Origin: an uncultured Thiothrix sp.
Lineage (GTDB): Bacteria; Pseudomonadota; Gammaproteobacteria; Thiotrichales; Thiotrichaceae
Reading direction: 5' to 3'
DNA: 64,000 nucleotides
Assembly (NCBI GenBank): GCA_964420315.1
Contig: CAYQTB010000001.1
Span: forward strand, 24,310-88,309
Below, piece after piece: positions 14,365 to 30,107 of this stretch (position 1 is the stretch's first letter; every line of letters begins with the position of its first letter). The notes beneath the pieces were generated by a model. That model was given only the letters and a program-made list of their open reading frames with translations, searched no databases and was not told the origin of the DNA. A program made the translations under genes and the position numbers.

Positions 14365-14499
14365 GGTATGTCCTGCTTGGAATTGTAGTGATGATGACCT
14401 GCGCTAGTATGCCCGATTTGCCGCAATAATTTCAGGCATTTTCACCCCAATTCTTGCTATCATATTTGTGTGTAACCATGCAGCTCGGTAACAATAATT

Positions 14500-14973
14500 A
14501 TGATGAATTTACCTCTGGGGGCAAACCTGCCACTGACCGGCAACCGCTGGACAGTCCATCTACAACCACTCCCGTTCCGCAACAGCGGTGTCGGTTTGGC
14601 ACAAAGCATTACCACGCTGGGTTATCCGTTAGCGGGTTTGATGGGCAGCGGCATTCAAGTCACGCAAGGCGTTATCTCCGGCTTGTTTGGGGCGCACAAC
14701 GACATTCGCCTCTTGCAATTCACCGCACCGATCCAACCCGGTTCCAGCGGCAGTCCCTTGCTGGATGAAACGGGCGCAGTGTTAGGCGTGGTGTCGTCCA
14801 CGTTTACCCACGCGCAGAACATGAATTTTGCCATCCGTCACAGCTTGGCGATTGCATTAATGGAAGCGGCTAATATCCAATACAACCTACAAAGCAGTGC
14901 GCAAACGCTGTCAGTCGCGCAAATGGTGACGCAAACCCAAAACGCCATCTGGCGTGTAGAATGCGCCAGCTAA
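14500..14973 (+). pseudogene. truncated trypsin-like (S1) serine protease: C-terminal barrel only
   Basis: It contains LGYP..GVISG..IQPGSSGSPLLD (the Ser195-equivalent barrel). No His/Asp-bearing N-terminal barrel is present. The in-frame upstream sequence hits a stop at 14473-14475. Confidence 0.5.
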
Positions 14974-14994
14974 CTAACTACCAATGGATTTTTC

Positions 14995-16092: not shown

Positions 16093-16823
16093 AGCCCTTA
16101 TTACTCACCGATTTGGATGACACGCTGTTCCAGACGGCGCGAAAGATGCCAGTGGATGCGGATAAAATCCCCGCAGCGCAAGGCAAAACCAGTGACAGCG
16201 GGAGCTTTATGTACCCTTGGCAACACGATTTCATCCACTGGGCGTTGGGTTGTATGACCGTGATTCCAGTGACGGCGCGGGGAATTGAGTCCTTCAGGCG
16301 TGTTCATCTGCCTTTTAAGCACGGCGCGGTGTGTGTGCACGGTGCTGCGCTTCTCACTCCCGACGGTCAGGTGGATGCAGCTTGGCATTCGCACATCCAG
16401 CCGCAACTGGCCGCCTATCAGGAACGCTTACCAGAAATGTTGGCAACCGCGCTGCAAATCGGTGAAACGCTGGGGTTATCTTTACGTGGCTGGCTGGAAT
16501 CGGTAGAAGACACCGCAGCGTATCTGGTGATCAAAAGCAATACCGCCAGCACCGCAGACCTCCAGCAACTGCTGCACAGCTTACGTGACACCCTTAACTT
16601 GCAAGGCTTCTACACCCACATGAATGGCAACAACCTCGCCCTGCTGCCCGATTTCGTCAATAAACGTGCCGCAGCGGCAGAAATATTGCGGCGGCATACG
16701 GCTGAACACGGGCGTACCCCGGTATTCGGTATGGGTGATAGCGTGTCGGATTTAGGCTTCATGCGCTTGTGTGATTTCGCCGCGTTTCCGCCCAACACGC
16801 AAATTTGCAGGCAATTACCATGA
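16089..16823 (+). CDS. HAD-superfamily hydrolase (Ter-linked)
   Basis: N-terminal HAD motif I LLLTDLDDTLF; VIPVTARG (motif II); GMGDSVSDL (motif IV). Confidence 0.75.
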   Translation: MKPLLLTDLDDTLFQTARKMPVDADKIPAAQGKTSDSGSFMYPWQHDFIHWALGCMTVIPVTARGIESFRRVHLPFKHGAVCVHGAALLTPDGQVDAAWHSHIQPQLAAYQERLPEMLATALQIGETLGLSLRGWLESVEDTAAYLVIKSNTASTADLQQLLHSLRDTLNLQGFYTHMNGNNLALLPDFVNKRAAAAEILRRHTAEHGRTPVFGMGDSVSDLGFMRLCDFAAFPPNTQICRQLP

Positions 16824-17893
16824 GCGCAACCCACGGTTTTCACGGCTCGTATGCTGCCAGCGATGTCACGTTTTTGTTGCGGCAAATCGTGATGGAAACC
16901 ACGCCAGTAGAGGAAAAAGAACGCCTGATTCAAAGCGGACAACGCCATTACTCCGAAATGCTGACGCTGGAATCGCCGCCTTCCGCCGCGCATCAAGCAT
17001 TGTTCGAGCAAGCACTGGATGATGGGCTGGAACGCCTTGCCTGCGAGGTGCAAGCCTTGGCACTGGCCTTGCAGCACCGTCGCCCGAATCGCCCGATGGT
17101 GCTGGTGAGTTTCGTGCGGGCAGGTGTACCGTTGGGTGTATTGCTGCAACGTGCCTTGCGCGAATTGGGGGTGGAAAGTGCGCATTACGGCATCAGCATT
17201 GTGCGGGATAAGGGCATCGACCAAGCAGCGGTGGACTGGATTGAGCAACGCCATGCGTTCGCTGACATTGTGTGGGTGGATGGCTGGGTCGGCAAAGGGG
17301 CGATTCACGGCGAATTGCAACGCTCGTTAGGCAAGCGTTACCCTGATAGCGAGATTCCTTTGGTGGTGTTGGCTGACCCGACCGGCAAAGCATGGCTGGC
17401 AGCATCCGGCGAAGATTGGTTGATTCCGTTTGGCATTTTAGGCTCGACCGTTTCCGGCTTGGTGTCACGCTCGATTTTACGCGAGGATGGCGGCTGGCAC
17501 GCGTGCGTCAATTACGCGCATTTGGCGGCACACGATGTTAGCCAGTGGTTTGTCGATACCGTGGATGCTTGCCGCCGCTCTCAGCAAGGGGTTACGACGG
17601 TAGATTGGGCAGATGCGTTACGCCATACGCTGCTGGCACAATCACAAGCCACCCTTGCGCAACTGGTTGAAACTTATGATATTACCAACCTTAACCGCTT
17701 GAAACCGGGGATTGCGGAAGCCACCCGGGCAGTCATGCGGCGCGTGCCAGAACACATTCTGGTGCAGCGTCTCGATGACCCGAATACCCGCTTATTACGC
17801 CATCTTGCCGATTCGCGGGGCATTCCCCTGCAAGCGGTTGGGGATGGGCTTGCGCCATACCGTGCGATAACCATCATCAAGAAGACCACATGA
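16820..17893 (+). CDS. StiP-like protein (PELOTA-like N-domain plus PRTase-like domain; Ter-linked)
   Basis: N-terminus HGSYAASDVTFLL and the central motif VWVDGWVGKGAI match what I recall of the StiP family annotated in ter islands. The ATG at 16820 forms an ATGA overlap with the HAD stop. Confidence 0.65.
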   Translation: MSATHGFHGSYAASDVTFLLRQIVMETTPVEEKERLIQSGQRHYSEMLTLESPPSAAHQALFEQALDDGLERLACEVQALALALQHRRPNRPMVLVSFVRAGVPLGVLLQRALRELGVESAHYGISIVRDKGIDQAAVDWIEQRHAFADIVWVDGWVGKGAIHGELQRSLGKRYPDSEIPLVVLADPTGKAWLAASGEDWLIPFGILGSTVSGLVSRSILREDGGWHACVNYAHLAAHDVSQWFVDTVDACRRSQQGVTTVDWADALRHTLLAQSQATLAQLVETYDITNLNRLKPGIAEATRAVMRRVPEHILVQRLDDPNTRLLRHLADSRGIPLQAVGDGLAPYRAITIIKKTT

Positions 17894-18843
17894 CCACACG
17901 CATTTCCCCTTATCAGTTAGGCGCAACCTTGTACATGCCAGCAACACGCCCCGATTTGCTGGAGGTGATTTTACGGCAAAAAATCCCTGACCTACGTTCG
18001 ATGGTGATTTGCCTCGAAGACGCGGTGCGTGAGGATGAAGTCGCCACCAGCTTAAGTAATCTGCAACACTGTTTGCGCGAACTGCGCGGGCAAGAACGCG
18101 GCGTACCGCTGGTGTTTATTCGCCCTCGCCACCCGCAAATGGCGCATCAATTATTGACGATGCAAGGCATTGAGTGTATTGACGGTTTTGTACTGCCCAA
18201 GTTTGATAACCAGTCGTTTGCGGCGTGGTATGCGGTGGTGCAAGCCGCCCCCACACACTTGCTGTTTATGCCCACGCTGGAAACGGCGCAAGTATTGGAT
18301 GCGCTGGCCGTGCGCGAATTGTGTGAACGCTTGCAAGATAGCGGGATTAAATCACGCATATTGGCGTTGCGGATTGGTGGTAACGATTTGCTGTCGTGCT
18401 TGCGCTTGCGGACGCACCATGCGCATACCTTGTACGATGGCCCGTTGGGGTATGTGGTGGCGATGCTGGTGACGCATTTTGTTCCAGCAGGTTTTCATCT
18501 GACTGCGCCCGTGTTTGAATATTTTCAGGATCACACTATCTTGCAAGCCGAATTTCAGCGCGATTTGCTGCACGGCTTGGTGGGTAAAACCGTGATTCAC
18601 CCCAGCCAGATTGCGGTGATCCATCAAGCATTGAAAGTGGATAGCCGGGATTACGAAGCGGCGTTGCGGATTCTGGATGATGCCATGCCTGCGGTGTTCC
18701 AATTTGAAGGGGCGATGTGCGAACCGGCAACGCATCACCATTGGGCGGTGCAGGTGATGGAACGTGCCAAGCATTTTGGCTGCCATTTGCACGCGGTGGC
18801 GGTGGATGAGGGGATGGAGAAAGAGTGTGCGGCATTGTATTAG
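17890..18843 (+). CDS. HpcH/HpaI aldolase / citrate lyase beta (CitE)-like C-C lyase (Ter-linked)
   Basis: 317 aa; LYMPATRPD, ICLEDAV, RIGGNDL and VIHPSQI are CitE-like TIM-barrel motifs. ATGA overlap at 17890-17893. Confidence 0.8.
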   Translation: MTTRISPYQLGATLYMPATRPDLLEVILRQKIPDLRSMVICLEDAVREDEVATSLSNLQHCLRELRGQERGVPLVFIRPRHPQMAHQLLTMQGIECIDGFVLPKFDNQSFAAWYAVVQAAPTHLLFMPTLETAQVLDALAVRELCERLQDSGIKSRILALRIGGNDLLSCLRLRTHHAHTLYDGPLGYVVAMLVTHFVPAGFHLTAPVFEYFQDHTILQAEFQRDLLHGLVGKTVIHPSQIAVIHQALKVDSRDYEAALRILDDAMPAVFQFEGAMCEPATHHHWAVQVMERAKHFGCHLHAVAVDEGMEKECAALY

Positions 18844-18951
18844 AGCTGCCATCGTCAATATGCATAGCGATTAAGCGTAGGTTCGGTTGATACATCATGA
18901 AAATTTTTCGGTTACAATCGCCATTATTATTGTGTAACCTGATGTTGCCTC

Positions 18952-21900
18952 ATGCCTGTTAACAAAACCGCTGATACCCGACCTGCTGAATCCCTCGATT
19001 TGACTGCGCCAGTAGCACCGCCTACGCCACCTAAGCAGCAAGGTCTCAACTTGCCGGGTAAAGCCGCTGCCAAACCTGCGGTCAAGCCTGCCGCCAGCGA
19101 TGAAACCCCGATCATTTCCTACCGCCACGGCGAAACCCGCAAAAACAACCCCGAAGTGGGCATGGTCAACGATGCCAATGACCCCGCACAGCCCCAGACT
19201 GAATGGGCGCATAATCCGCACCTTGCCCCCGAATTGCAGTTTGATTCCAGCCGGGCGGCGGTGGAGCAATTGATTGATGGGGCGCTGGCGAGTGGTGATG
19301 CGGCGGTGATGCGCGAGGCGTTGGCGGAATTGAAGCGGATGCAGTCGCCGTTTTTGAATTGGGCGGGGAAGGCGGAACGTACCAGCTTTGCGGTGGATAC
19401 GGTGAGCTTGCATGTGCATGAGCGGATTGACCCGTTGAGTATTTTGTCGGCGTTGCAGAAGGGGATGAAGAAGAACCCCCCATCCCCAGCCCTTCCCCCG
19501 CAAGGGGTGAAGGGAGCGAAGAGGGCGGGTTCGTTTCAGTTGGGGTTGTTTAATGCGCCGTTTGAGAATTTGCCGTTGCGGGATGCGGTGGATTTTTACC
19601 ATCACGATAAGGGGTGGTCGAATCGTTTGGTGGCGGGGGATTCGTTGCTGGTGATGAATTCCTTGTTACAGAAGGAAAGCATGGCGGGGCAGGTGCAGAT
19701 GATCTACCTTGATCCGCCGTATGGGATTAAGTATGGCTCGAATTTCCAGCCGTTTGTGAACAAGCGCGATGTCAAAGACCGCAAGGATGAGGATTTGACG
19801 CAAGAGCCGGAAATGATCAAGGCGTTTCGGGATACGTGGGAACTGGGCATCCACTCGTATTTGACCTACTTGCGTGACCGCTTGCTGTTGGCACGCGACC
19901 TGCTTGCTGACAGCGGCTCAATCTTCGTCCAAATCTCCGACGAAAACTTGCACCACGTCCGCGAACTCCTCGACGAAATTTTCGGTGTCGAAAACTTTGT
20001 CGCCATTGTTACTGTTACAAAAACAACAGGAGCAGGTAGTCCAGAAATAGGTACGACAACTATTGCTTCAATTTGTGATTATATTGTTTGGTATTCAAAG
20101 AAAAAAATAGATATGAAATATAATCAGCTATTTAAGGCGAAGGTCGCAGGTGACGAAGGTGGTTCTCGATACAAATTAATGAATCAGCATGACGGTCGTT
20201 ATGCAACCACATCAGATATAAGATCGCAAAGCGGTGGAGAAACAACTTCTTTTCCAATCAATTTTTGTGGAAGAGTTTTTAAGCCGTCACCAATGTTTTG
20301 GAAAACGAATTTATCAGGATCAAATAGCCTTAAGCTATCTGGACGATTAGTTATCGAAGGCAATACTCTCAGGTTTTTGCGATTTTTAGATGATTTTCCT
20401 GTTTCACCGCTGAATAATATTTGGACAGATGTTGGTGGCATACAGAGTCGCACTGATTCTAAAATTTATGTCGTTCAAAGTGCGGTAAAATTGATTGAGC
20501 GGTGTATGTTGATGACGACGGAGCCGGGGGATTTGGTGTTTGACCCGACGTGCGGCAGCGGCACAACTGCTTTCGTGGCGGAGAAGTGGGGGCGACGCTG
20601 GATTACCTGCGATACCTCACGGGTAGCCGTAACGCTGGCAAAACAACGTTTGATGACCGCCAGCTTTGACTACTTCGACCTCAAATACCCGCAAGAAGGC
20701 TTGAAAGGCGGCTTTATCTACAAAACCGTCCCGCACGTCACGCTCAAATCCATCGCCAATAATCCCGAAATCGACATGATTTACGAGAAGATGCACCCGG
20801 CGGTGGAGCAAGCATTGGCGGAGTTGAATGCTGCGCTTGCCCTCACCCTAATCCTCCCCCGCAAGGGGGGCGGGAACAAGAACCTCTCCGAAACACCTTC
20901 TTCGCTCCCTTCACCCCTTGCGGGGGAAGGGTTGGGGATGGGGGGGATTGCCGAATGGGATGTGCCGTTCGCTTTTCCCGCCGATTGGCCAGAAGCCGCA
21001 CGCGCCCCATTCGAGGCATTCCACACCGCCCGCCAAGCCATGCAACGCCGCATGGACGACAGCATCGCCGCCAACGCCGGACAAGAAACCCTCTACGACC
21101 AGCCACAAATCGCCAAAGACAAACTGCGCATCACCGGCCCGTTTTCACTCGAAGCCGTGCCATTCCCCACCGTGCTATCCCTCAACGACGCGGCACAACC
21201 CGCCCAAGCCGACAACAGCATCGCCCGCAGCGGTGAAACCTCCCGCCAAACCCAATGGCGCGATGAGTTGATGAAAACCGGCATCCGTGGCAAAAACAAA
21301 CAGATGCTCAAATTCGCCGAACTCGAAACCCTGCCCGGCACGCGCTACCTGCACAGCGGCGGCACTCTCGACACCGGTGAGCGCGTGGTGGTCAGCTTCG
21401 GCCCTGAACACGCCGCCCTCGAACAACGCCAAGTCGAAAACGCCCTGCGCGAAGCCGGTGAGTTGTTCCCGCTGCCGAAAATGATCGTGTTCTGCGCCTT
21501 CACCTTCGACCCCGAAGCCGCCAAGGACATCGACGCGACCAAAGGCATCACTGCCCTGAAAGCGCAAATGAACACCGACCTGCTCACCGAAGACCTGAAA
21601 AAACAACGCGCCAACAACCAAAGTTTCTGGCTGATGGGGCAACCCGACGTGGAAGTGCGCAAACGCAAAGACGGTCTTTACGAAGTCGAAGTCCACGGTT
21701 TCGACTACTTCGACACCACCAAGGGCGAGTTGCAATCCGGCGGCAAAAACCGCATCGCCGTGTGGTCGCTGGATACGGATTACGACAACCGTTCCCTGTT
21801 CCCTGCACAAGTTTTCTTCCCGATGGCTGGCAAACAAGACGGCTGGTATAAACTCAAGAAAGACATCCGTGCTGAACTCGACGAAACGCGGCTGGATGCG

Positions 21901-22011
21901 TTCCACGGCACAGTTTCCTTGCCGTTTGTCGCAGGCGACCACAAGCGCATTGCCGTCAAAATCGTGGATGACCGTGGGATAGAATCGCTGAAAGTGATGG
22001 AGTTGGAGTAA
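18952..22011 (+). CDS. mod: site-specific DNA methyltransferase, beta-class N6/N4 (type III Mod-like), 1019 aa
   Basis: Motif IV IYLDPPYG (DPPY codons 19711-19722) precedes motif I FDPTCGSGTT (about 20539-20568). This is the beta permutation, with the TRD between the two motifs. The C-terminal tail ..RIAVKIVDDRGIE is typical of this long Mod family. Confidence 0.9.
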   Translation: MPVNKTADTRPAESLDLTAPVAPPTPPKQQGLNLPGKAAAKPAVKPAASDETPIISYRHGETRKNNPEVGMVNDANDPAQPQTEWAHNPHLAPELQFDSSRAAVEQLIDGALASGDAAVMREALAELKRMQSPFLNWAGKAERTSFAVDTVSLHVHERIDPLSILSALQKGMKKNPPSPALPPQGVKGAKRAGSFQLGLFNAPFENLPLRDAVDFYHHDKGWSNRLVAGDSLLVMNSLLQKESMAGQVQMIYLDPPYGIKYGSNFQPFVNKRDVKDRKDEDLTQEPEMIKAFRDTWELGIHSYLTYLRDRLLLARDLLADSGSIFVQISDENLHHVRELLDEIFGVENFVAIVTVTKTTGAGSPEIGTTTIASICDYIVWYSKKKIDMKYNQLFKAKVAGDEGGSRYKLMNQHDGRYATTSDIRSQSGGETTSFPINFCGRVFKPSPMFWKTNLSGSNSLKLSGRLVIEGNTLRFLRFLDDFPVSPLNNIWTDVGGIQSRTDSKIYVVQSAVKLIERCMLMTTEPGDLVFDPTCGSGTTAFVAEKWGRRWITCDTSRVAVTLAKQRLMTASFDYFDLKYPQEGLKGGFIYKTVPHVTLKSIANNPEIDMIYEKMHPAVEQALAELNAALALTLILPRKGGGNKNLSETPSSLPSPLAGEGLGMGGIAEWDVPFAFPADWPEAARAPFEAFHTARQAMQRRMDDSIAANAGQETLYDQPQIAKDKLRITGPFSLEAVPFPTVLSLNDAAQPAQADNSIARSGETSRQTQWRDELMKTGIRGKNKQMLKFAELETLPGTRYLHSGGTLDTGERVVVSFGPEHAALEQRQVENALREAGELFPLPKMIVFCAFTFDPEAAKDIDATKGITALKAQMNTDLLTEDLKKQRANNQSFWLMGQPDVEVRKRKDGLYEVEVHGFDYFDTTKGELQSGGKNRIAVWSLDTDYDNRSLFPAQVFFPMAGKQDGWYKLKKDIRAELDETRLDAFHGTVSLPFVAGDHKRIAVKIVDDRGIESLKVMELE
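19476..19523. repeat. GC-rich palindromic (REP/MITE-like) unit inserted in frame within mod
   Basis: Sequence: ccccccatccccagcccttcccccgcaaggggtgaagggagcgaagag. It holds an internal hairpin (cccttcccc-gcaa-ggggtgaaggg) and translates as NPPSPALPPQGVKGAKR. Its reverse complement matches 20900-20945. Confidence 0.8.
20000..20510 (+). other. low-GC segment of mod corresponding to the target recognition domain
   Basis: Hand counts give 40/120 GC (20041-20160) and 45/120 GC (20161-20280), against 68/120 in a res sample (24001-24120). The segment lies between the DPPY and FxGxG motifs. Confidence 0.7.
20838..20946. repeat. composite GC-rich palindromic repeat (two hairpin modules) inserted in frame within mod
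   Basis: Module 1 is tcctcccccgcaaggggggcggga (about 20853-20876). Module 2 (20900-20945) matches the reverse complement of 19476-19521 at 45 of 46 positions (hand alignment). It translates as LILPRKGGGNKNLSETPSSLPSPLAGEGLGMGG. Confidence 0.8.
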
Positions 22012-22015
22012 GTAA

Positions 22016-23167
22016 ATGTTCATAACCCGTATCAAACTGAAAAACTGGAAAAACTTTCGGGAGGTGGATGTTCCGCTGTTTCCGCAAACCTACCTGATCG
22101 GCCCGAATGCCTCCGGCAAATCCAACTTTCTGGACGTGTTCCGTTTTTTGCGTGACGTAGCAAAACCTTCGGGTGGTGGCCTGCAAAAAGCCGTAGAAGA
22201 CCGGGGGGGCATCGGCAAATTACGCTGCCTGCACGCCCGCAAGGATACCGAAGTCAAAATTGAAATTGATCTGGCTTTGTCGCTGGATGCAGAACCTGTC
22301 TGGAAATATGTATTGGGTTTTAAAGCCGAAGGTGTAGGTCGCCAACGTACCCAAGTCACTCAGGAATTGGTTATCAAAGATGGCAAGGTTATCCTTAGCC
22401 GCCCAGACCATGATGATGGCAGTGACCGTGAACGTCTGACCCAAACCTACTTGGAGCAAATCAGTTCCAATAAGGCATTCCGTGAGATCGTGGAGTTTTT
22501 TGCTGTCACTACTTACTTGCATATCGTGCCGCAACTGTTGAAATATGGCGACAAAATTGGCGGCAACCCGTTGGAAGAAGACCCATTGGGGCAGAAGTTT
22601 CTGGAGAGGATAGCCGATACCACCGAAAGGACACGCAAGGCACGGCTGGATAAAATTGAAGAGGCACTGAAAGTTGCTGTCCCCCGTTTTGAGGCGATCC
22701 GCTTCGTACGTGACGAGAAAAATGGTCATCCACATCTGGAAGCCTTATACGGACATCATCGCCCCAATGCAGGTTGGCAACGTGAAGACCAGTTTTCTGA
22801 CGGTACACTACGCCTGTTGGGGTTGTTGTGGATGTTGATGGAAGGTGACTCGCTACTCCTGATGGAAGAACCAGAACTGTCACTTAACAATGCCATTGTC
22901 GAACGTATCCCCGAACTGATTTACCGCATCCAGCGCAAGACCAAGTACAAGCGGCAAGTATTGATCAGCACCCACAGCGCAGCCCTGCTCAGTAATCCGG
23001 GCATCGACAGCCGCGCAGTGTTGATGTTGGAACCGGGTTCAGAGGGAACGCACATCCGCCCACCCAATACAGAAGAGTTGACCACGGTTAATGCTGGTTT
23101 TTCTGCTGCTGAAGTGTTGCTACCCAAAATAAGACCACAAAATATTGAGCAACTGGGACTATTCTGA
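22016..23167 (+). CDS. ABC-type (AAA_15/AAA_21-like) ATPase, OLD/AbiL/PARIS-like ATPase component
   Basis: 383 aa; N-terminus FITRIKLKNWKNF; Walker A GPNASGKSNFLD; signature-like FSDGTLRLLGL; Walker B LLLMEEPELSL; H-loop ISTHS. Confidence 0.8.
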   Translation: MFITRIKLKNWKNFREVDVPLFPQTYLIGPNASGKSNFLDVFRFLRDVAKPSGGGLQKAVEDRGGIGKLRCLHARKDTEVKIEIDLALSLDAEPVWKYVLGFKAEGVGRQRTQVTQELVIKDGKVILSRPDHDDGSDRERLTQTYLEQISSNKAFREIVEFFAVTTYLHIVPQLLKYGDKIGGNPLEEDPLGQKFLERIADTTERTRKARLDKIEEALKVAVPRFEAIRFVRDEKNGHPHLEALYGHHRPNAGWQREDQFSDGTLRLLGLLWMLMEGDSLLLMEEPELSLNNAIVERIPELIYRIQRKTKYKRQVLISTHSAALLSNPGIDSRAVLMLEPGSEGTHIRPPNTEELTTVNAGFSAAEVLLPKIRPQNIEQLGLF

Positions 23168-23766
23168 TGATCCATATTTGTCTGGCAACAGAGGATGCCC
23201 TGTCGGCAGCGGTGGCTGAAAAACTGCTGGCAGTTTCAGGCAAACCCTTCCAGATCACTCAGCGGCTGGGTAACAGCGGGTTTGGCTACCTGAAAAAACG
23301 GTTGCCTAATTTCAACCAAATAGCTGTCAATGTCATGCCGGTTTTGCTGCTGACAGACCTTGACAGGACGGATTGTGTCTTAGGTTTCATTGAAGATTGG
23401 ACAAAGGGGATGTCTGTATCAGAACGCCTGCTATTCCGTGTTGTGGTGCGTGAAATTGAAGCATGGTTGTTGGCAGACCAACAAGCCTTTGCGGACTTGT
23501 TGGGAATTGATTCAACCCTGTTACCCAATGAACCAGAAAATCTCCTAGACCCCAAACAGGCATTGCTGAATTTGGTCAGGCGCTCCAAGCAACGCAAGCT
23601 GAAAGACATGATCCTACCCGGAAAAAACACCAACAATACAGTTGGTCTAGGCTACAACACTGAGCTTGTTCGCTATGTGAGGGAATACTGGAATCCACTT
23701 ACCGCAGCCGAGTCTGCTCCAAGCCTTGCGCGTACTTTGAAAAGAATTAATGAGCTTGCTTCATGA
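23167..23766 (+). CDS. small Toprim-like protein (DUF4276-like), putative nuclease partner of the ATPase
   Basis: 199 aa. Strand-Glu start IHICLATEDALS, acidic DxD-type motif LLLTDLDRTDC, then REIEAWLLAD. This layout resembles Toprim/DUF4276. 1-nt overlap (TGATG) with the ATPase gene. Family call from memory only. Confidence 0.5.
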   Translation: MIHICLATEDALSAAVAEKLLAVSGKPFQITQRLGNSGFGYLKKRLPNFNQIAVNVMPVLLLTDLDRTDCVLGFIEDWTKGMSVSERLLFRVVVREIEAWLLADQQAFADLLGIDSTLLPNEPENLLDPKQALLNLVRRSKQRKLKDMILPGKNTNNTVGLGYNTELVRYVREYWNPLTAAESAPSLARTLKRINELAS

Positions 23767-26576
23767 CCGCCCCCCAATCCCTGATCATCAACAGCCCCTA
23801 CGCCTGCCCGCAACGGCATTGGCGCAAGGCAACGCAAAACAGTTCCACTACGCCCAAATTAGAGCAGGTAGTCGGTCGCCGCCCCGCCAGTTACGAAATC
23901 TTTGACACCCGCAACAACACCAGCCGCGAAGTCGAATTGCCGCTGGTTAACCAAATCCGTGAACGGGTGGACGCATGGCGCACCGCAGGCTACCCCGGCA
24001 TCAGCTCCATCACCCGCAGCTTGCTGGAGCATTGGCATGACAGCACTGCCCGCGATTACCCATTCTATTTCTGCCAACTGGAAGCCATCGAAACCCTGAT
24101 CTGGTGGGTGGAAGCCCTGCCTGATTACAAGCAAGGCATTGCGATTGAAGGCGACGGCGGTGCGTGGGAACGTTTGTGCAGCAAAATGGCGACAGGTACA
24201 GGCAAAACTACCGTGATGGCGATGCTGATTACCTGGCAGGTACTCAACGCTCTTGCATTTCCTAAGCGTCACAAGGAATTTTCCAGCACTATCCTGATCA
24301 TTGCACCGGGTTTGACCGTCAAGGAACGCTTGCAGGTATTGCAGCCGGGGGCAGCCGCCAACTATTACGATGCGTTCAGCCTTTGCCCCAACGCCTCACT
24401 ACGCCACAAACTCAACCAGATGGAACTGTTGATTGAGAACTGGCACACCTTAATGCCGTTAACAGAACCGGAACGTTCGGTACAGAAAAAAGGTGCAGAA
24501 AACGATGAAGCCTTTACCCGTCGGGTATTGGGCAAGCTGGCAAACAAGCGCGGTCTGCTGGTGATCAACGACGAAGCCCACCACGCTTACCGCAAACCCG
24601 CTGAACTCAAGATCAGCAAGGCACAAGCCGCCGAACAGGGCATTGATCTGGATGAAGCGACCCGCTGGATTGAGGGGCTAGACCGCATCCACAAAACCCG
24701 CCGCATTGCCCGCTGTTTTGACCTGTCCGCTACCCCGTTTGCGCCCACGGGTAAGCGCAACACCGAGTCGGCACTGTTCCCGTGGGTCATTTCTGATTTT
24801 GGCTTGTACGATGCGATTGAAGCCGGGCTGGTGAAAACCCCGCGTGTGGTGGTGCGCGATGATGCGTTACCGAATGCCAAAACCTACCGCCCCAAGCTCT
24901 ACCACTTATATGCCGAAGCCGATGTCGCCGAGGATTTGAACCGCAAAGGCGCACAAGCCACCGAACCCTTGCCGGAATTGGTGCAAACCGCCTACACCTT
25001 GCTGGGGGCGGATTGGCGTGCCGCATTACACCGTTGGCAAGCGGCAGGGCACACTTCACCGCCCGTCATGTTGACAGTATGCAACCGCACCGAAACCGCC
25101 GCGCGGGTGGAGCATTATTTTCGGGCAGGTGATGCGCATTGGGCAGAATTGCAAGCCCCCGAACGCACCTTGCGCGTCGATTCCAGAGTGCTGGAGAAAG
25201 CCGAAGTGGGGGAAACCGCAACGGCTGACAAAGGCTACGAAGCCCAGCTTCAGGCCATTATCCACGCTGCCAATATCCCCGTGACCCGCAAACAGGAACT
25301 GCAAGCCCTGAAGAAAGAGGAGTTGCTGCGCGAGATCATTGATAACGTCGGCAAACGCGGCACGGCTGGGCAGGATTTGCAAAACGTGATTTCCGTTGCG
25401 ATGCTCTCGGAAGGTTGGGATGCCAAAAACGTCACCCACATCATGGGTTTACGCGCCTTTTCCAGCCAATTGTTGTGTGAGCAGGTAATCGGGCGCGGTT
25501 TGCGGCGCGTGTCCTACGACCGGGACGAAAACGGCCTGTTCATCCCCGAATACGTGAACGTGTTTGGTGTGCCGCTGTCCATTTTTCAGGATGTGGGGGA
25601 TGGTGGCGAACCACCCCCGCCGCCCAAACCCAGCACCCAGATCAAATCACTGCCAGAACGCCACGCGCTGGCAATCCGCTGGCCTAATGTGTTGCGTATT
25701 GACACCGTAGTCTGCCCGGAATTGCATATCGACTGGTCACAGGTAGAAACACTCACGCTTGACCCGGCATTAACGCCAGTTTCCGCTGATCTAGCACCGG
25801 CCTTGGGGGGCGCAACGGCACTGGATCAGGTACACGGCATCGACCTTGCGTTATTGCCAGAAGGTTTCCGCCTGCAACGGCTGGTGTTCCGTGCTGCCCA
25901 AAAAGCCTTCGACCAATTACAGGCCGCTTTTAAAGGCAACCGTGAATACCTGTTGCTGCAACTGATTCGTTTGGTGGAGCAATTTATTGGTTCTGAGGTG
26001 CTGCGCATCCCGTCCGATTACCACCAAGAACCGTTACGCAAACGCATTCTGATTGGGTTGAATATCGACATCATCGTCCAGCACCTGTTGCGCTTTGTGA
26101 CCGAACAGAACAGCGAACGGCTGGAGCCGGTTTTTGATACGGATAAGCCGCAATCCTCCACTGCCGATATGCCCGTCTGGTACAGCACCAAGCCCTGTTT
26201 TGAAACCACTAAGTCGCCCATTTCCCATGTCGTCGATGACAGTACGTGGGAGCATTACGTCGCGGGTGTGCTGGAAAAATCGGAATTGGTACGCAGCTAT
26301 GCCAAGAACGATCACTTGGGCTTTCAGGTGTTGTACCTGTGGCGCGGTTCCAAACGGCGTTATGTGCCCGATTTCCTGATCCGTTTGGCAAACGGTAAAA
26401 CACTGGTGCTGGAAATCAAGGGCAAACACTCTGAACAGGCCACCGCCAAACGTGCTGCGCTGGATACATGGGTAGCCGCCATCAACAGCAGCGGCGGCTT
26501 TGGGGAATGGTGTGCCGCTGTGATTTTCGAGCCTGCTAAGATTTACGACACGCTGGCACAGCACGGGGAAGCCTAA
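23763..26576 (+). CDS. res: type III restriction enzyme Res subunit (SF2 helicase plus PD-(D/E)XK nuclease)
   Basis: 937 aa; Walker A KMATGTGKTT; DEAH box VINDEAHHAY; motif VI QVIGRGLRR; C-terminal nuclease motif YVPDFLIRL..LVLEIKG. ATGA overlap at 23763-23766. Confidence 0.9.
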   Translation: MTAPQSLIINSPYACPQRHWRKATQNSSTTPKLEQVVGRRPASYEIFDTRNNTSREVELPLVNQIRERVDAWRTAGYPGISSITRSLLEHWHDSTARDYPFYFCQLEAIETLIWWVEALPDYKQGIAIEGDGGAWERLCSKMATGTGKTTVMAMLITWQVLNALAFPKRHKEFSSTILIIAPGLTVKERLQVLQPGAAANYYDAFSLCPNASLRHKLNQMELLIENWHTLMPLTEPERSVQKKGAENDEAFTRRVLGKLANKRGLLVINDEAHHAYRKPAELKISKAQAAEQGIDLDEATRWIEGLDRIHKTRRIARCFDLSATPFAPTGKRNTESALFPWVISDFGLYDAIEAGLVKTPRVVVRDDALPNAKTYRPKLYHLYAEADVAEDLNRKGAQATEPLPELVQTAYTLLGADWRAALHRWQAAGHTSPPVMLTVCNRTETAARVEHYFRAGDAHWAELQAPERTLRVDSRVLEKAEVGETATADKGYEAQLQAIIHAANIPVTRKQELQALKKEELLREIIDNVGKRGTAGQDLQNVISVAMLSEGWDAKNVTHIMGLRAFSSQLLCEQVIGRGLRRVSYDRDENGLFIPEYVNVFGVPLSIFQDVGDGGEPPPPPKPSTQIKSLPERHALAIRWPNVLRIDTVVCPELHIDWSQVETLTLDPALTPVSADLAPALGGATALDQVHGIDLALLPEGFRLQRLVFRAAQKAFDQLQAAFKGNREYLLLQLIRLVEQFIGSEVLRIPSDYHQEPLRKRILIGLNIDIIVQHLLRFVTEQNSERLEPVFDTDKPQSSTADMPVWYSTKPCFETTKSPISHVVDDSTWEHYVAGVLEKSELVRSYAKNDHLGFQVLYLWRGSKRRYVPDFLIRLANGKTLVLEIKGKHSEQATAKRAALDTWVAAINSSGGFGEWCAAVIFEPAKIYDTLAQHGEA

Positions 26577-26579
26577 ATC

Positions 26580-29500
26580 ATGCAAACACTCCATGCCCAA
26601 AGCGTTCCCCTCGTTGGCACAAATCTGATCGAAGCCAGCGCAGGCACGGGTAAAACTTGGACGATTTCATGGCTCTACCTGCGCCTAATCGCCGTCTACG
26701 GTCTCAAAGTCGACAAAATTCTGGTTGTCACCTACACCGAAGCTGCCACCGCCGAATTACGTGACCGCATCCGCAAACGCCTTGCCGATGCCTTAGCGTA
26801 TTTGGAAGGACGTCCACACGCGGAAACTTACGAATCATTACCCCTCGAAGCGCCAATTCACGACTGCATCCAACGCCTGCAACTGGCATTGGTCAGTTTC
26901 GACGAAGCGGCAGTTTTCACCATTCACGGTTTCTGCAAGCGTGTGTTATCCGAAAACGCCTTTGAAGCGCGGATGCCGTTTGAAACCGAGTTGGTGACAA
27001 ATGAAGACAATCTGCTCACCGAATTGACCGACAAATTTTGGTATCAGCACTTTCTCAAACCCGATGCGCTGCATTTGCGCTTGTTGCAAAAACGCGGGCT
27101 GACCCCGGATGGTTTGCTGGCAACCGTGCGCCATTTCATTGGTAAACCCTATTTGCACGCCGAGATTCTGCCTGTCACCACCGAGGCATTTGCGCAACGG
27201 CAAAGCGTTTTTGACGCTGCTTTGCAAGCTTGCCAGCAAAGTTGGGCGAGTGAACGTGAGGTGATTATCGGTTTATTGCTGGGGGACGCACTCAACGGCA
27301 GCACCTACAGCAAGCGCTATGTGCCGAATTGGGCGGGCAAACTCGATGCGTATTTCGCCACCCCGCTGGAATTGCCCATTGAGATTGCTGAGCGCTTTAC
27401 GACGACTGCGCTGACCGAGAAAACCAAGCCCGGTAAGGTGACGCCGCAACACGCTTTTTTCACGCAAGTGGATAACTTACTCGCCGCCCATGATGCGCTC
27501 TCTGAAGGTGAACAAGCTGCACTGGAATACTTGCGCCTGCAATTGCTGCACCAGTTACGCGCCGAATTACCGGTGCGTAAACAGCAACTCGGCATTCTCA
27601 CCTTTGATGATTTGCTGCTGCATTTGCGGGATGCCTTGGCACAGCACCCCGATTTCCCGCCGCGTTTGGCGCTGAAATACCAAGCAGCGCTGATTGATGA
27701 GTTTCAGGACACTGACCCGATTCAGTATGAAATTTTCGAGCGCATCTACCACGATAAACCCGAACAGCCGGTGTTTTACGTGGGCGACCCCAAACAAGCG
27801 ATTTACGGGTTTCGAGGGGCGGATATTTACACCTACCTCAAAGCCGCGCACAGCACCTCAGCGCATTACACGCTGCAACACAACTTTCGTTCACACCCTG
27901 ATTTGCTGCAAGCGCTTAACCACCTGTTCGCGCAATCTGATCAGCCGTTCCGCAGCGACATCCGCTACGAAGCGGTCAGCGCCGGTAAACCGCAGGCAGA
28001 TTTACGCATCGAGCCACCGCTTCCTCCCATCCGCCTCTGGGATTGGAACGCTCTTGACGAAGGCTACAACAGCGCTGCCGTGCAAGAATGCATTGCCGAA
28101 GCCGTTGCCAATGACATTGCCCGCTTATTAAACGCCGGTCGCGAAGGTATTGCCCTGATTGGTGAACGCCCCGTAGAAAGCCGTGACATTGCGGTACTGG
28201 TGCGCGAAAACCAACAGGGCGAACAAATCAAACGTGCTTTGCTGGCACGCGGCATTGCCAGCGTCCAAAAATCGCGAGACAGCATTTTTTGTACCCGCGA
28301 AGCCAGCGATTTCCGTGCAGTATTGCGAGCAATTGCCGAACCGGGCAATGAAGCGGCGCTTAAACAAGCCCTTGTCACCGAACTGTTTGGTTTCACGGCT
28401 CAGGATTTGTTTGCGCTGGATGAGAACCCGCAGCGATTGGAAGCCGAACTCGAAGCGTTTCACCGTTGGCATAAAACTTGGCATTCGCAAGGCTTTATGC
28501 CGATGTTTCGCCAGTGGCTGTTACAACGCCAACGCTACGCGTACTTATTAGCCTTGGTGGATGGCGAACGTCGCCTCACCAATTTGTTACATCTGGCGGA
28601 ACTGATCCATACCGAAAGCCGCTTGCAAGGGCATGGGATGCACGCGCTGATTCGCTGGTTGCAGCAAAAAGCCGAAGCGGGTGAACAAGACGAAGCACAC
28701 GAACTGCGTTTGGAAAGCGATGAGAACTTGGTACAAATTACCACCATCCACAAAAGCAAGGGGCTGGAATACGGCATTGTGTATTGCCCGTATTTGTGGG
28801 CAGAACGTGATGCCAAAGCCGGGGCGTGGTTCAGTTGGTATGACCGTGAGTCAGATGCGGGCATTTCGCGCCTGCAAGCTGAAGCGTTTGCTAGTGATGC
28901 GGCGCTTAAGTGTTTTCGCGAAGCCGAACAAGCGGAAAGTTTGCGTTTGCTGTACGTCGCGCTCACCCGTGCCAAATACCATTGCACCATTGCACTGGTC
29001 AGCGGGCGCATTAATAAATTCGACTACTATTCGGCACTCGGTTGGCTGCTATTCGGCAAGTTACCGCAGGGCAGAGAGATTCTCGGCAAATTGCGCAAAG
29101 ACGGGATGCAACCCGACGAACGCCAACGTTTGATGCACACGCAATTAACCCACTTGGTGGAACAGTCCGCTGGCGGTATCAGCCATGAAGTGTTGCCGGT
29201 TGAAGAAACACCTGTGCGTTACCAAGCAGACAGCGGGCAATGGCAACCCAGCATCCGCCGTTACCAGCCACGTTATGCGCCGGTTCCCAAAGTCGGCAGT
29301 TTCAGCGGTTTGGCATCAGGCAAGGAAGATGAACGCCCGGACTATGACACGCTGGTTGTTACCTCGGTCGCTGAGCGAAGTCGCAGCGATGCATTTCCAC
29401 GCGGTGCAACAGCCGGCAGTTGCTTGCACAAAATGCTGGAGGAACTCGACTTCACCCAAGCACTTGCCACCCAACACGAGAGCGTATTGCTACCGGCATT

Positions 29501-30107
29501 GAAACGCCACGGCTTGCCCGAACGCTGGCTACCCGCTGGTGTGCAACTGCTGGAAAATGCTCTCAATACGCCGTTGCCTGCCGTTAATTTGCGTTTGTGC
29601 GACCTTTCCAAAACACAACGCCTTGACGAACTCGAATTTTATTTCCCAGTAGAGCGCTTGCGTCTGAAACCGTTGCAAACCTTGTTGCACCAGCACTTGC
29701 CCACCGAATGGGAAGCCATTCACACCGCTATCGATAAGCTGAAGTTCAATGACTTAACCGGTTATATGAAAGGCTACATTGATTTGGTGTTTACGGCTGA
29801 TGGGCAGTATTTTGTGGTGGATTACAAGTCGAATGATCTGGGCGCAACGCCTGCCGATTATGGTTTTGAGGCGATGCAAGAGGCGATGGCGGAACACCAT
29901 TACTACCTGCAATACCTGATCTATTGTTTAGCCTTGCATCGCTATTTGCAGCAGCGCTTGCCGGGGTATGCTTGGGAACGGCATATGGGGGGGGCTTTGT
30001 ATTTATTTTTGCGTGGCATGGTACCGGAACAAGCAGGTTCCGGCGTATTCTTTCATAAGCCAACGTTTACTTTGATTGAGGCGTTGGAGCACGCAATGGG
30101 TCAGTAA
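26580..30107 (+). CDS. recB: RecB-family helicase-nuclease (exodeoxyribonuclease V beta-like), 1175 aa
   Basis: LIEASAGTGKTWTI, LIDEFQDTDPIQ, VGDPKQAIYGFRGADI, TIHKSKGLEY and the nuclease motif GYIDLVF..VVDYKSN..QYLIYCLALHRYL. The ATG lies 3 nt after the res stop. Confidence 0.85.
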   Translation: MQTLHAQSVPLVGTNLIEASAGTGKTWTISWLYLRLIAVYGLKVDKILVVTYTEAATAELRDRIRKRLADALAYLEGRPHAETYESLPLEAPIHDCIQRLQLALVSFDEAAVFTIHGFCKRVLSENAFEARMPFETELVTNEDNLLTELTDKFWYQHFLKPDALHLRLLQKRGLTPDGLLATVRHFIGKPYLHAEILPVTTEAFAQRQSVFDAALQACQQSWASEREVIIGLLLGDALNGSTYSKRYVPNWAGKLDAYFATPLELPIEIAERFTTTALTEKTKPGKVTPQHAFFTQVDNLLAAHDALSEGEQAALEYLRLQLLHQLRAELPVRKQQLGILTFDDLLLHLRDALAQHPDFPPRLALKYQAALIDEFQDTDPIQYEIFERIYHDKPEQPVFYVGDPKQAIYGFRGADIYTYLKAAHSTSAHYTLQHNFRSHPDLLQALNHLFAQSDQPFRSDIRYEAVSAGKPQADLRIEPPLPPIRLWDWNALDEGYNSAAVQECIAEAVANDIARLLNAGREGIALIGERPVESRDIAVLVRENQQGEQIKRALLARGIASVQKSRDSIFCTREASDFRAVLRAIAEPGNEAALKQALVTELFGFTAQDLFALDENPQRLEAELEAFHRWHKTWHSQGFMPMFRQWLLQRQRYAYLLALVDGERRLTNLLHLAELIHTESRLQGHGMHALIRWLQQKAEAGEQDEAHELRLESDENLVQITTIHKSKGLEYGIVYCPYLWAERDAKAGAWFSWYDRESDAGISRLQAEAFASDAALKCFREAEQAESLRLLYVALTRAKYHCTIALVSGRINKFDYYSALGWLLFGKLPQGREILGKLRKDGMQPDERQRLMHTQLTHLVEQSAGGISHEVLPVEETPVRYQADSGQWQPSIRRYQPRYAPVPKVGSFSGLASGKEDERPDYDTLVVTSVAERSRSDAFPRGATAGSCLHKMLEELDFTQALATQHESVLLPALKRHGLPERWLPAGVQLLENALNTPLPAVNLRLCDLSKTQRLDELEFYFPVERLRLKPLQTLLHQHLPTEWEAIHTAIDKLKFNDLTGYMKGYIDLVFTADGQYFVVDYKSNDLGATPADYGFEAMQEAMAEHHYYLQYLIYCLALHRYLQQRLPGYAWERHMGGALYLFLRGMVPEQAGSGVFFHKPTFTLIEALEHAMGQ

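What the first reader, a model, noticed from the sequence alone, without database searches (positions are those of the whole stretch)
18952..30107. Five translationally coupled genes form one composite defence operon: Mod, ABC-ATPase, Toprim, Res, RecB
Seen in sequence:
- All five ORFs are on the + strand.
- mod to ATPase: TAA 22009-22011, then ATG at 22016 (4-nt gap).
- ATPase to Toprim: 1-nt overlap, TGATG at 23165-23169.
- Toprim to res: 4-nt overlap, ATGA at 23763-23766.
- res to recB: TAA 26574-26576, then ATG at 26580 (3-nt gap).
- I see no stem-loop terminator at any junction.

Established knowledge:
- A type III R-M system needs only mod and res.
- OLD-family/Gabija systems pair an ABC-ATPase/Toprim nuclease with a UvrD-family SF1 helicase.
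- RecB is an SF1 (UvrD-family) helicase fused to a PD-(D/E)XK nuclease.

Inference: this operon interleaves a type III R-M system with the parts list of a Gabija/PARIS-like system, using a full RecB in the helicase role. I do not recognise this five-gene arrangement as any named system. It could be a layered unit in which restriction, sensing of anti-restriction, and degradation of cut DNA are co-expressed.
Basis: partly seen in the sequence, partly recalled or inferred. Interest (0 to 1): 0.85.

Follow-up and report, generated by a model that had tools for sequence, protein, structure and literature searches.

The report
Restriction cassette with embedded module beside recB
A horizontally acquired restriction-modification gene pair carrying a swappable two-gene candidate anti-phage module has landed just in front of a Thiothrix bacterium's ordinary recB repair gene, so the "five-gene defence system" is really a four-gene cassette plus a housekeeping neighbour.

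Summary
Five + strand ORFs sit at the stated coordinates with junctions of 4-nt gap, 1-nt overlap, 4-nt overlap and 3-nt gap, and no terminator-like site lies at any junction.

- Genes 1 and 4 are a type III-like Mod/Res pair. Res belongs to the NCBIfam "BPTD_3080 family restriction endonuclease".
- Genes 2 and 3 are the already catalogued PADLOC candidate HEC-01: an ABC ATPase plus a DUF4276/Toprim protein.
- Gene 5 is the vertically inherited housekeeping recB of a Thiothrix. It passes the TIGR00609 equivalog cut-off, its identity to homologues follows Thiothrix taxonomy, and its downstream synteny is conserved.

In 61 other loci of this R-M family with enough downstream DNA, recB never follows res. 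In three Thiothrix species without the cassette, a conserved element lies directly before the recB ATG. In the window that element lies upstream of mod. So a cassette of about 7.66 kb was inserted between the recB leader and its start codon.

About half of 68 mod-res loci carry other cargo in the same slot. Two related Thiothrix contigs keep the res-recB junction but carry PD-T4-4 in place of HEC-01.

Verdict: a new instance of known defence-gene embedding. It is not a new five-gene system.

The parts
18854..18920 (+). Displaced recB-proximal upstream element, presumably the recB promoter or leader, now lying about 30 nt upstream of mod
   Evidence: It is 80-85% identical to the 55-65 nt immediately before the recB ATG in Ca. 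Thiothrix sulfatifontis (L083 9937-9991) and T. fructosivorans (L085). It also aligns with T. caldifontis (L084). No sigma-70 consensus was found in it, so promoter function is inferred.
18921..26578 (+). Inserted cassette of about 7.66 kb: mod, HEC-01A, HEC-01B, res
   Evidence: Homology to cassette-free Thiothrix genomes stops at about 18920 and resumes at 26579, 1 nt before the recB ATG. 'AATC' occurs at both edges (18916-18919 and 26576-26579). This may be a duplication or microhomology, or chance.
18952..22011 (+). mod: type III-like N6-adenine DNA methyltransferase, 1019 aa
   Evidence: Pfam N6_N4_Mtase at 1.2e-31. PADLOC MTase_III PDLC03632 at 2.2e-164. The best solved relatives are type III Mods 6k0w and EcoP15I 4zcf. 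DPPY precedes FDPTCGSGTT, the beta-class motif order.
19476..19525 (.). Left copy of a 50-nt GC-rich palindromic repeat, in frame in a variable loop of Mod
   Evidence: It is 96% complementary to 20896-20945. It appears as an insert relative to Mod homologues. A copy about 80% identical lies in frame inside recB of L087.
20896..20945 (.). Right copy of the same repeat in inverted orientation, with a partial third copy at 20846-20868
22016..23167 (+). HEC-01A: ABC-type ATPase, 383 aa
   Evidence: PADLOC HEC-01A PDLC04180 at 2.6e-150 over the full length. Pfam AAA_21 at 3.7e-38 and AAA_15. Walker A GPNASGKS, signature FSDGTLR, Walker B LLLMEEPE and H-loop STHS are all present.
23167..23766 (+). 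HEC-01B: DUF4276 Toprim-fold protein, predicted nuclease effector, 199 aa
   Evidence: PADLOC HEC-01B at 6.7e-58. Pfam DUF4276. E9, D64-x-D66 and E98 are invariant, and E96 nearly so (90% or more), in 26 homologues. The AF2 model has pLDDT 91. Its best PDB fold matches are the C-terminal Toprim regions of OLD nucleases 6nk8 and 6njx, with probability 0.85-0.99 but TM only 0.36-0.46.
22019..23762 (+). Exchangeable cargo segment, exactly the two HEC-01 ORFs
   Evidence: DNA homology to Thiothrix contig L087 runs through the end of mod to 22018 (94%) and resumes at 23763, the res ATG (87%). In between, L087 and L086 carry PD-T4-4 A and B instead.
23763..26576 (+). res: BPTD_3080-family restriction endonuclease, an SF2 ATPase with a C-terminal PD-(D/E)XK-like motif, 937 aa
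   Evidence: NCBIfam NF046055 at 1136 bits against a cut-off of 800. Pfam ResIII. G145/G147/K148/T149, D270-E-A-H273 and D870/E884/K886 are invariant. Homologues are at least 70% identical across several phyla.
26580..30107 (+). recB: housekeeping exodeoxyribonuclease V beta subunit. It is a neighbour of the cassette, not a component.
   Evidence: TIGR00609 at 928 bits against a cut-off of 696. Identity to homologues follows Thiothrix taxonomy. The downstream synteny (231-aa ORF, inositol monophosphatase, nth, rnf operon) is shared with L083-L085.

Best explanation
The window comes from a Thiothrix-like gammaproteobacterium.

A horizontally mobile type III-like restriction-modification cassette of about 7.66 kb was inserted between the promoter or leader of the chromosomal housekeeping recB gene and its start codon. 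The cassette consists of a Mod methyltransferase and a BPTD_3080-family Res.

Between mod and res the cassette carries an 'embedded' two-gene module, HEC-01. It consists of an ABC ATPase and a DUF4276 Toprim-fold protein.

Likely working, all inferred from family knowledge:
- Mod methylates adenines in an asymmetric site.
- A Mod-Res complex uses the SF2 ATPase of Res and its C-terminal PD-(D/E)XK nuclease to cut unmodified incoming DNA.
- HEC-01 acts as a separate second layer. By analogy with PARIS and OLD, the ABC ATPase would hold or sense, and on a phage cue would license the Toprim nuclease.

The mod-res gap is a general cargo slot in this R-M family. The cargo is exchanged by recombination in the flanking mod and res sequence.

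recB is an ordinary RecBCD subunit. As an accident of the insertion, it is now probably read through from the cassette.
For: Shown here:
1. Family assignments of all five proteins.
2. Mod and Res are always linked in 68 loci from bacteria and archaea. recB is not found within up to 10 kb downstream of res in any of these loci, 61 of which have at least 3.6 kb of downstream sequence.
3. RecB homologues rank by taxonomy: Ca. T. sulfatifontis 93%, T. caldifontis 82%, T. fructosivorans 76%, T. nivea 73%, Thiolinea 51%. By contrast, the nearest Res homologues outside Thiothrix are 70-74% identical in Desulfuromonadales, Nitrosomonadales and Rhodobacterales.
4. Three Thiothrix genomes have recB in the same downstream synteny but no cassette.
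5. Their recB-proximal upstream element is found in the window at 18854-18920, upstream of mod.
6. 34 of 68 loci have at least 500 nt between mod and res. The cargo found there includes:
   - PD-T4-4
   - TIR/PDC-S35
   - SoFic
   - HEC-09 and HEC-03/NsnB-like proteins
   - a Ppl-like ATPase with a Schlafen protein
   - an HTH-M78 protein with DUF4411/PIN
   - PDC-S03, PDC-S13 and PDC-M32
.
7. HEC-01 sits between mod and res in L004, L005, L007, L017, L022 and L090. It also occurs alone or in another island in L091 and L088.
8. L086 and L087 keep the same res-recB junction but carry PD-T4-4. The homology breakpoints fall exactly at the cargo edges.
9. The HEC-01B Toprim residues and fold are intact, as are the ATPase motifs.

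From the literature:
- HEC-01 is a published Hma-embedded candidate, and defence embedding is a described phenomenon.
- DUF4276 is classed as Toprim.
Against: - No expression data exist, so co-transcription and the promoter role of 18854-18920 are inferred. The sigma-70 scan found no consensus promoter there.
- Res has no detectable sequence match to solved type III Res enzymes, and PADLOC REase_III models hit only a 46-residue stretch. 'Type III' is therefore by architecture, not by close homology.
- HEC-01 gave no protection against any phage tested in E. coli in the only published assay. Its defence role is unproven.
- The res-recB junction is shared by lineages whose RecB is only 76% identical, yet it is absent from a lineage at 93%. 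The history of the insertion is not a single simple event, and retention could reflect selection.
Confidence: 0.85

Rival explanations
1. All five genes form one composite defence system, in which a full RecB serves as the SF1 helicase-nuclease partner of the ATPase/Toprim pair (Gabija-like) and degrades DNA cut by the R-M enzyme.
For: - Junctions are tight and there is no terminator at any of them.
- RecB shares the UvrD-like domains of GajB (PADLOC GajB hits at about 1e-29).
- The res-recB junction is kept in three Thiothrix lineages.
- RecBCD is known to degrade restricted DNA (established knowledge).
Against: - None of 61 other loci has recB downstream of res.
- HEC-01 pairs elsewhere have no UvrD-family neighbour.
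- This RecB is the TIGR00609 equivalog, in conserved synteny and with a vertical identity pattern.
- Cassette-free relatives have the same recB at the same place.
- The GajB hits cover only generic helicase motifs.
Confidence: 0.04
2. The capture of recB is adaptive rather than accidental. Placing recB under read-through and translational coupling from res ties RecBCD supply to restriction activity. That could speed clearance of cut DNA, feed spacer acquisition, or protect the host chromosome from self-restriction breaks. The junction would then be maintained by selection.
For: - The stop, 3 nt, ATG junction is homologous in the window, in L087 (RecB 92%) and in L086 (RecB 76%, Res 95%), even though the cargo was swapped.
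- The recB-proximal upstream element was separated from recB by the insertion.
- The 3' end of res supplies a GGGGA purine run 10-14 nt before the recB ATG.
Against: - The junction is confined to a few Thiothrix contigs.
- Closer relatives lack it.
- No other R-M locus of the family shows it.
- The region upstream of recB is simply variable in Thiothrix. It holds CHAT, AAA and FGE-sulfatase genes in L083 and L085 and nothing extra in L084.
- Persistence could reflect only the difficulty of excising the cassette without harming recB.
Confidence: 0.12
3. HEC-01 is mechanistically tied to the host R-M system, as a PARIS-like guard that fires when a phage anti-restriction protein blocks Mod/Res. 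It would not be an independent hitch-hiker that merely uses the slot for co-regulation and mobility.
For: - HEC-01A matches AriA models (4.8e-35).
- PARIS is triggered by the anti-restriction protein Ocr (PMC11464382; Payne et al. discussion).
- The module is same-strand with overlapping start and stop codons.
- HEC-01 recurs in this same slot in six other loci.
Against: - The same slot takes many unrelated cargos.
- HEC-01 occurs without any R-M neighbour in L091 and next to other genes in L088.
- HEC-01B is DUF4276, not the DUF4435 of AriB.
- No trigger is known, and no defence was seen in the published test.
Confidence: 0.3

Closest known systems
Defence systems embedded within other defence systems: Hma, BREX, DISARM and type I R-M hosts (Payne et al., bioRxiv 10.1101/2024.01.29.577857)
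   Same: - Same-strand cargo lies between the core genes of a methylation-based system.
- The cargo is drawn from the same pool: HEC-01, HEC-03, HEC-09, PD-T4-4 and the PDC-S and PDC-M candidates.
- About half of the loci are occupied here (34 of 68), against 62.7% reported for Hma.
   Different: - The host is a two-gene type III-like Mod/Res pair of the BPTD_3080 family. The main text of that paper, as searched, treats only Hma, BREX, DISARM and type I R-M as hosts; I did not see its supplementary figures.
- PADLOC's REase_III models barely recognise this Res.
- An allelic cargo swap (HEC-01 against PD-T4-4) is seen here at one fixed chromosomal site.
HEC-01 (PADLOC candidate: ABC ATPase plus Toprim)
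   Same: Both proteins match HEC-01 models over their full length (2.6e-150 and 6.7e-58). Gene order is A then B with overlapping stop and start. The Toprim acidic residues are conserved.
   Different: Nothing structural separates it from HEC-01, so it is a member. Function remains unproven, because the published representative gave no protection in E. coli.
Type III R-M systems (EcoP15I, EcoP1I)
   Same: - The order is mod then res on one strand.
- Mod is a beta-class N6-adenine methyltransferase whose closest solved relatives are type III Mods.
- Res has an N-terminal SF2 ATPase (ResIII) and a C-terminal PD-(D/E)XK-like motif.
   Different: - Mod is about 370 residues longer than EcoP15I Mod (1019 aa against 644).
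- Res has no significant sequence match to any solved structure beyond a helicase motif.
- NCBI files Res under its own family, NF046055.
- No biochemical data exist.
PARIS (AriA/AriB) and Gabija (GajA/GajB), OLD-family ABC ATPase plus Toprim systems
   Same: All share an ABC ATPase of the AAA_15/AAA_21 type working with a Toprim nuclease. Hits to AriA, Old and GajA models confirm the relation. The best fold matches of HEC-01B are OLD Toprim regions.
   Different: - The effector is DUF4276, not the DUF4435 of AriB.
- ATPase and Toprim are separate proteins, unlike GajA and Old.
- There is no conserved UvrD-family partner, unlike Gabija.
MADS mad3/mad4
   Same: MADS contains an AAA ATPase (Mad3) and a DUF4276 protein (Mad4) inside a methylation-associated system (PMC12065111). 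HEC-01A hits the mad3 model.
   Different: The score against NCBIfam antiphage_MADS3 is 82 bits, far below the cut-off of 420. None of the other mad genes is present.

Membership tests
Type III restriction-modification | mod immediately upstream of res on the same strand | tested here: met
   Met in the window and in 68 related loci, apart from the inserted cargo.
Type III restriction-modification | Mod is a beta-class N6-adenine methyltransferase (motif IV DPPY before motif I FxGxG) related to known type III Mods | tested here: met
   DPPY lies near residue 253 and FDPTCGSGTT near residue 545. PADLOC MTase_III scores 2.2e-164. The best PDB hits are 6k0w Mod and EcoP15I Mod 4zcf.
Type III restriction-modification | Res combines an SF2 helicase-like ATPase with a C-terminal PD-(D/E)XK endonuclease | tested here: met
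   Pfam ResIII covers residues 105-325. GTGKT, DEAH and D870/E884/K886 are invariant. A weak TnsA-like endonuclease hit covers 861-909. The nuclease fold itself was not modelled.
Type III restriction-modification | Res is detectably homologous to characterised type III Res enzymes | tested here: not met
   No PDB sequence hit at E <= 0.01. The profile search found only a RadD helicase motif. PADLOC REase_III hits one 46-residue stretch.
Type III restriction-modification | ATP-dependent cleavage needing two inversely oriented unmethylated sites, with hemimethylation by Mod | not testable with these tools
   Needs methylome and cleavage assays.
NCBIfam NF046055, BPTD_3080 family restriction endonuclease | Full-length score above the curated cut-off | tested here: met
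   1136.3 bits against a cut-off of 800, covering residues 5-934.
HEC-01 (PADLOC) | Adjacent HEC-01A ABC ATPase and HEC-01B Toprim-like protein on the same strand | tested here: met
   2.6e-150 and 6.7e-58, both full length, with a 1-nt overlap between the ORFs.
HEC-01 (PADLOC) | Anti-phage activity | not testable with these tools
   The published representative showed no protection against the phages tested.
PARIS | AriB-type DUF4435/Toprim effector next to AriA | tested here: not met
   Protein 3 matches only DUF4276 and HEC-01B models. No AriB or DUF4435 hit appears.
Gabija | GajA, a fused ATPase-Toprim of about 580 aa, with a conserved adjacent GajB UvrD-like helicase | tested here: not met
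   ATPase and Toprim are separate genes, and GajA models match only the first 41-47 residues. The UvrD-family neighbour is RecB (TIGR00609 equivalog), and it is not linked in other loci.
RecBCD subunit RecB (housekeeping) | Equivalog-level match, orthologous synteny and a vertical identity pattern | tested here: met
   TIGR00609 scores 928 bits against a cut-off of 696. Synteny with L083-L085 is conserved. Identity follows taxonomy. Whether a second recB exists elsewhere in the genome could not be checked.
Embedded defence cargo (guilt-by-embedding, Payne et al.) | Genes nested between the core genes of a defence system, in the same orientation, with variable content between homologous hosts | tested here: met
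   34 of 68 loci carry cargo, most of it on the + strand and of many families.

The most novel reading that the evidence does not exclude
In one Thiothrix subclade the housekeeping recB has been captured into a restriction operon. The cassette split recB from its own upstream element, and recB is now read through from res and translationally coupled to it. The exact junction has been kept across lineages whose RecB has diverged to 76% identity, while the embedded cargo was swapped. That retention would mean selection for co-expression of restriction and RecBCD.

Separately, the BPTD_3080-type Mod/Res pair would be a major host of exchangeable defence cargo that I did not find reported.
Probability: 0.15. 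Interest if true: 0.55.

Novelty: new member of a known kind. Interest (0 to 1): 0.3.

Why it matters
This removes a tempting but wrong 'new five-gene system'. The RecB link is a local insertion accident, and the ATPase/Toprim pair is already catalogued.

What remains useful is modest.
- A widespread and very conserved type III-like R-M family carries exchangeable defence cargo between mod and res in about half of its loci. The family spans bacteria and archaea, and current defence-finder models recognise it poorly. The guilt-by-embedding approach could therefore be extended to it.
- The Thiothrix locus offers a natural pair of alleles, HEC-01 against PD-T4-4, in identical flanks. That pair is a clean setting for testing what HEC-01 does.
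- It is also an example of an essential repair gene being placed under the transcriptional control of a mobile defence cassette.

Tried and rejected
- Sequence and profile searches of Res against solved structures gave nothing useful. Homology to EcoP15I Res could be neither shown nor excluded.
- The sigma-70 scan found no promoter in the conserved recB-upstream element or anywhere near mod. The promoter claim therefore stays an inference.
- A literature search for 'BPTD_3080' returned no paper.
- Two family scans failed because my cargo coordinates were off by one. They were repeated correctly.
- The 50-nt inverted repeat inside mod was considered as an inversion ON/OFF switch for the methyltransferase core. 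I rate this unlikely, for two reasons. The arms are copies of a dispersed palindromic element also found in frame inside recB of L087. No recombinase gene is adjacent. It is not excluded.
- A blastn-short search for more copies of that element in the fetched loci found only the two in mod. The L087 copy is visible only with ordinary blastn.
- Membership of Hma, MADS, PARIS and Gabija was considered and rejected on HMM scores and gene content.
- The GC profile shows no clear compositional island apart from a dip at 19.5-20.5 kb inside mod, so composition did not help to delimit the insertion.

Full report
**1. Observation**

The five + strand ORFs and their junctions are exactly as described:
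- 18952-22011
- 22016-23167
- 23167-23766
- 23763-26576
- 26580-30107

The res-recB junction was read directly: GCC TAA, then ATC, then ATG. No terminator-like hairpin lies at a junction. The region has fewer such sites than shuffled sequence, 13 against 20.2 +/- 5.5.

**2. What the five proteins are**

Gene 1 is a beta-class N6-adenine methyltransferase.
- Pfam N6_N4_Mtase matches at 1.2e-31.
- PADLOC MTase_III matches at 2.2e-164.
- DPPY precedes FDPTCGSGTT.
- The closest solved relatives are the type III Mods 6k0w and EcoP15I.

Gene 4 scores 1136 bits against NCBIfam NF046055, 'BPTD_3080 family restriction endonuclease', whose cut-off is 800.
- It has a ResIII SF2 ATPase region.
- GTGKT, DEAH and a C-terminal D...ExK are invariant.
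- It has no sequence match to any solved restriction enzyme.
- I therefore call the pair type III-like by architecture.

Genes 2 and 3 match the PADLOC models HEC-01A (2.6e-150) and HEC-01B (6.7e-58) over their full lengths.
- The ATPase motifs are intact.
- HEC-01B keeps E9, D64-x-D66 and E98 as invariant residues in 26 homologues, and E96 in at least 90% of them.
- Its AlphaFold model (pLDDT 91) finds the Toprim regions of OLD nucleases as best PDB matches. The probability is 0.99 for the top hit, but the TM-score is only 0.45.

Gene 5 passes the TIGR00609 recB equivalog cut-off, 928 bits against 696.

**3. Is recB part of the unit? No.**

I fetched 80 genomic loci encoding relatives of Res, from many bacterial and archaeal phyla. 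I then searched them with all five window proteins.
- Mod is upstream of Res in 68 loci where both ends are visible.
- RecB is never found, although 61 loci have at least 3.6 kb downstream of res.

RecB homologues rank strictly by taxonomy:

| Organism | Identity to window RecB |
|---|---|
| Ca. Thiothrix sulfatifontis | 93% |
| T. caldifontis | 82% |
| T. fructosivorans | 76% |
| T. nivea | 73% |
| T. lacustris | 71% |
| Thiolinea | about 51% |
| Thiofilum | about 45% |

Res behaves differently. Beyond its own genus, its nearest relatives are 70-74% identical proteins of Desulfuromonadales, Nitrosomonadales, Rhodobacterales and others. That pattern marks a horizontally moving, strongly constrained gene.

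In Ca. T. sulfatifontis, T. caldifontis and T. fructosivorans, recB lies in the same downstream synteny as in the window. The order is a 230-aa ORF, inositol monophosphatase, nth, the rnf operon and an aldehyde dehydrogenase. None of the three has the cassette upstream.

**4. How the adjacency arose**

In those three genomes about 150 nt separate the upstream gene from recB. The last 55-65 nt before the ATG are conserved. The same element is found in the window at 18854-18920, about 30 nt upstream of the mod ATG. Homology to the relatives resumes at 26579, one base before the recB ATG.

So roughly 18921-26578 (7.66 kb) is an insertion between the recB leader and its start codon.
- This explains the 3-nt junction.
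- It makes read-through of recB from the cassette likely. That step is inferred, because no consensus promoter was detected.

The region upstream of recB is variable in Thiothrix in any case:
- L083 and L085 carry CHAT, AAA, 'Pepco' and FGE-sulfatase genes there.
- L084 carries nothing extra.
- The window carries a StiP, PRTase and C-C-lyase cluster further upstream.

**5. The mod-res gap is a cargo slot**

Of 68 loci:
- 31 have mod and res adjacent (less than 150 nt apart).
- 34 have at least 500 nt between them.
- 27 of those 34 have at least 1 kb.

The inserted ORFs are mostly on the same strand. They match known or candidate defence proteins:
- PD-T4-4 A and B
- a CAP12/Pycsar-type TIR protein (PDC-S35)
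- SoFic, PDC-S03, PDC-S13 and PDC-M32A
- HEC-09
- an NsnB/HEC-03-like ATPase
- a Ppl-like ATPase with a Schlafen/AlbA_2 protein
- an HTH plus M78 peptidase with a DUF4411/PIN protein
- an OLD/AriAB-like protein
- an E1-like protein

HEC-01 occupies the slot in L004, L005, L007, L017, L022 and L090. It also occurs with no R-M neighbour in L091 and in a different island in L088. It therefore behaves as an autonomous module.

Two Thiothrix contigs are the most telling. L086 has Res 95% and RecB 76% identical to the window. L087 has RecB 92% identical.
- Both keep the homologous junction of res stop, 3 nt, recB ATG.
- Both carry PD-T4-4 A and B instead of HEC-01.
- DNA homology between the window and L087 runs to 22018, the start codon of the first cargo gene. 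It resumes at 23763, the res start codon.
- This is a clean cassette exchange inside constant flanks.

**6. Relation to what is known**

[quoted passage not shown] (bioRxiv 10.1101/2024.01.29.577857). In that work HEC-01 gave no protection against the phages tested.

DUF4276 is classed as a Toprim domain and equated with Mad4 of MADS (PMC12065111). It also appears in the AAA_15/21 defence tree of the PARIS paper (PMC11464382).

What I did not find reported is this type III-like family acting as a host, or the allelic swap at one chromosomal site. Both are incremental extensions.

Three candidate families fail their membership tests:
- PARIS: no DUF4435 or AriB.
- Gabija: no fused GajA and no conserved UvrD partner.
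- MADS: 82 bits against a cut-off of 420.

**7. Mechanism**

Shown: gene content, intact catalytic motifs, modular recurrence and the insertion history.

Inferred from family knowledge:
- Mod hemimethylates an asymmetric site.
- Mod-Res restricts unmodified DNA in an ATP-dependent way.
- HEC-01 is a second layer in which the ABC ATPase senses a phage cue and licenses the Toprim nuclease, by analogy with PARIS and OLD.

Whether HEC-01 guards the R-M system against anti-restriction proteins or merely shares its regulation and mobility is open. I put the guard model at about 0.3. recB supplies ordinary RecBCD function. Adaptive co-expression with res is possible but unsupported, at about 0.12.

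**8. Verdict**

The thing is an R-M cassette with an embedded, already named candidate module, inserted next to a housekeeping gene. It is a new member of a known kind, of modest interest.

Noticed in passing
window 19476-19525 and 20896-20945 (partial copy at 20846-20868); L087 6642-6707: A 50-nt GC-rich palindromic element occurs twice in inverted orientation (96% complementary) inside the mod ORF, in frame, in two variable loops that flank the methyltransferase core. A copy about 80% identical is inserted in frame in recB of a related Thiothrix contig, adding 'LPSPLAGEGLGVRGIP'. It behaves like the Rickettsia palindromic elements, which also sit in frame inside genes (comparison from memory). 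Recombination between the two arms could in principle invert and switch off mod.
   Followed up: partly
window 13294-18843: A cluster lies directly upstream of the cassette and is absent from this position in L083-L085. It encodes an ATP-grasp enzyme, a small trypsin-like protein, PRTase_2+TRSP, an unknown 244-aa protein, StiP+PELOTA_1 and a TIM-barrel C-C bond lyase. From memory, it resembles the Ter-linked 'nucleoside-like metabolite' stress and defence clusters described by Anantharaman, Iyer and Aravind.
   Followed up: partly
L083 6662-9855; L085 6632-9847: In Ca. T. sulfatifontis and T. fructosivorans the slot upstream of recB holds a protein of about 630 aa (with a CHAT protease hit in L085 only), an AAA ATPase and a small 'Pepco' protein, plus FGE-sulfatase genes. 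T. caldifontis (L084) has none of these. The recB-upstream region therefore looks like a variable hotspot in Thiothrix, possibly for defence genes.
   Followed up: no
window 18916-18919 and 26576-26579: The tetranucleotide AATC occurs at both edges of the inserted cassette. It could be a target-site duplication or microhomology, but a 4-nt match may be chance.
   Followed up: no
L086 versus window and L083: The res-recB junction is shared by lineages whose RecB is only 76% identical, while Res is 95% identical. It is absent from a lineage with 93% RecB identity. This implies either repeated precise loss or spread of the cassette-bearing allele between Thiothrix species by homologous recombination.
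   Followed up: partly
window 23763-26576: Res of this family is unusually conserved: 70-74% identity between Gammaproteobacteria, Desulfuromonadales and Alphaproteobacteria, and 45-50% to archaeal copies. PADLOC's type III Res models nevertheless detect only a 46-residue stretch, so standard defence finders probably under-call this R-M family.
   Followed up: partly
L048, L067, L082, L026, L042 (mod-res gaps of 3.7-5.5 kb): Some loci carry two or three different modules stacked in the same mod-res slot. One example is a PD-T4-4-like ATPase pair, then an HTH-M78/DUF4411 pair, then an OLD-like protein.
   Followed up: partly
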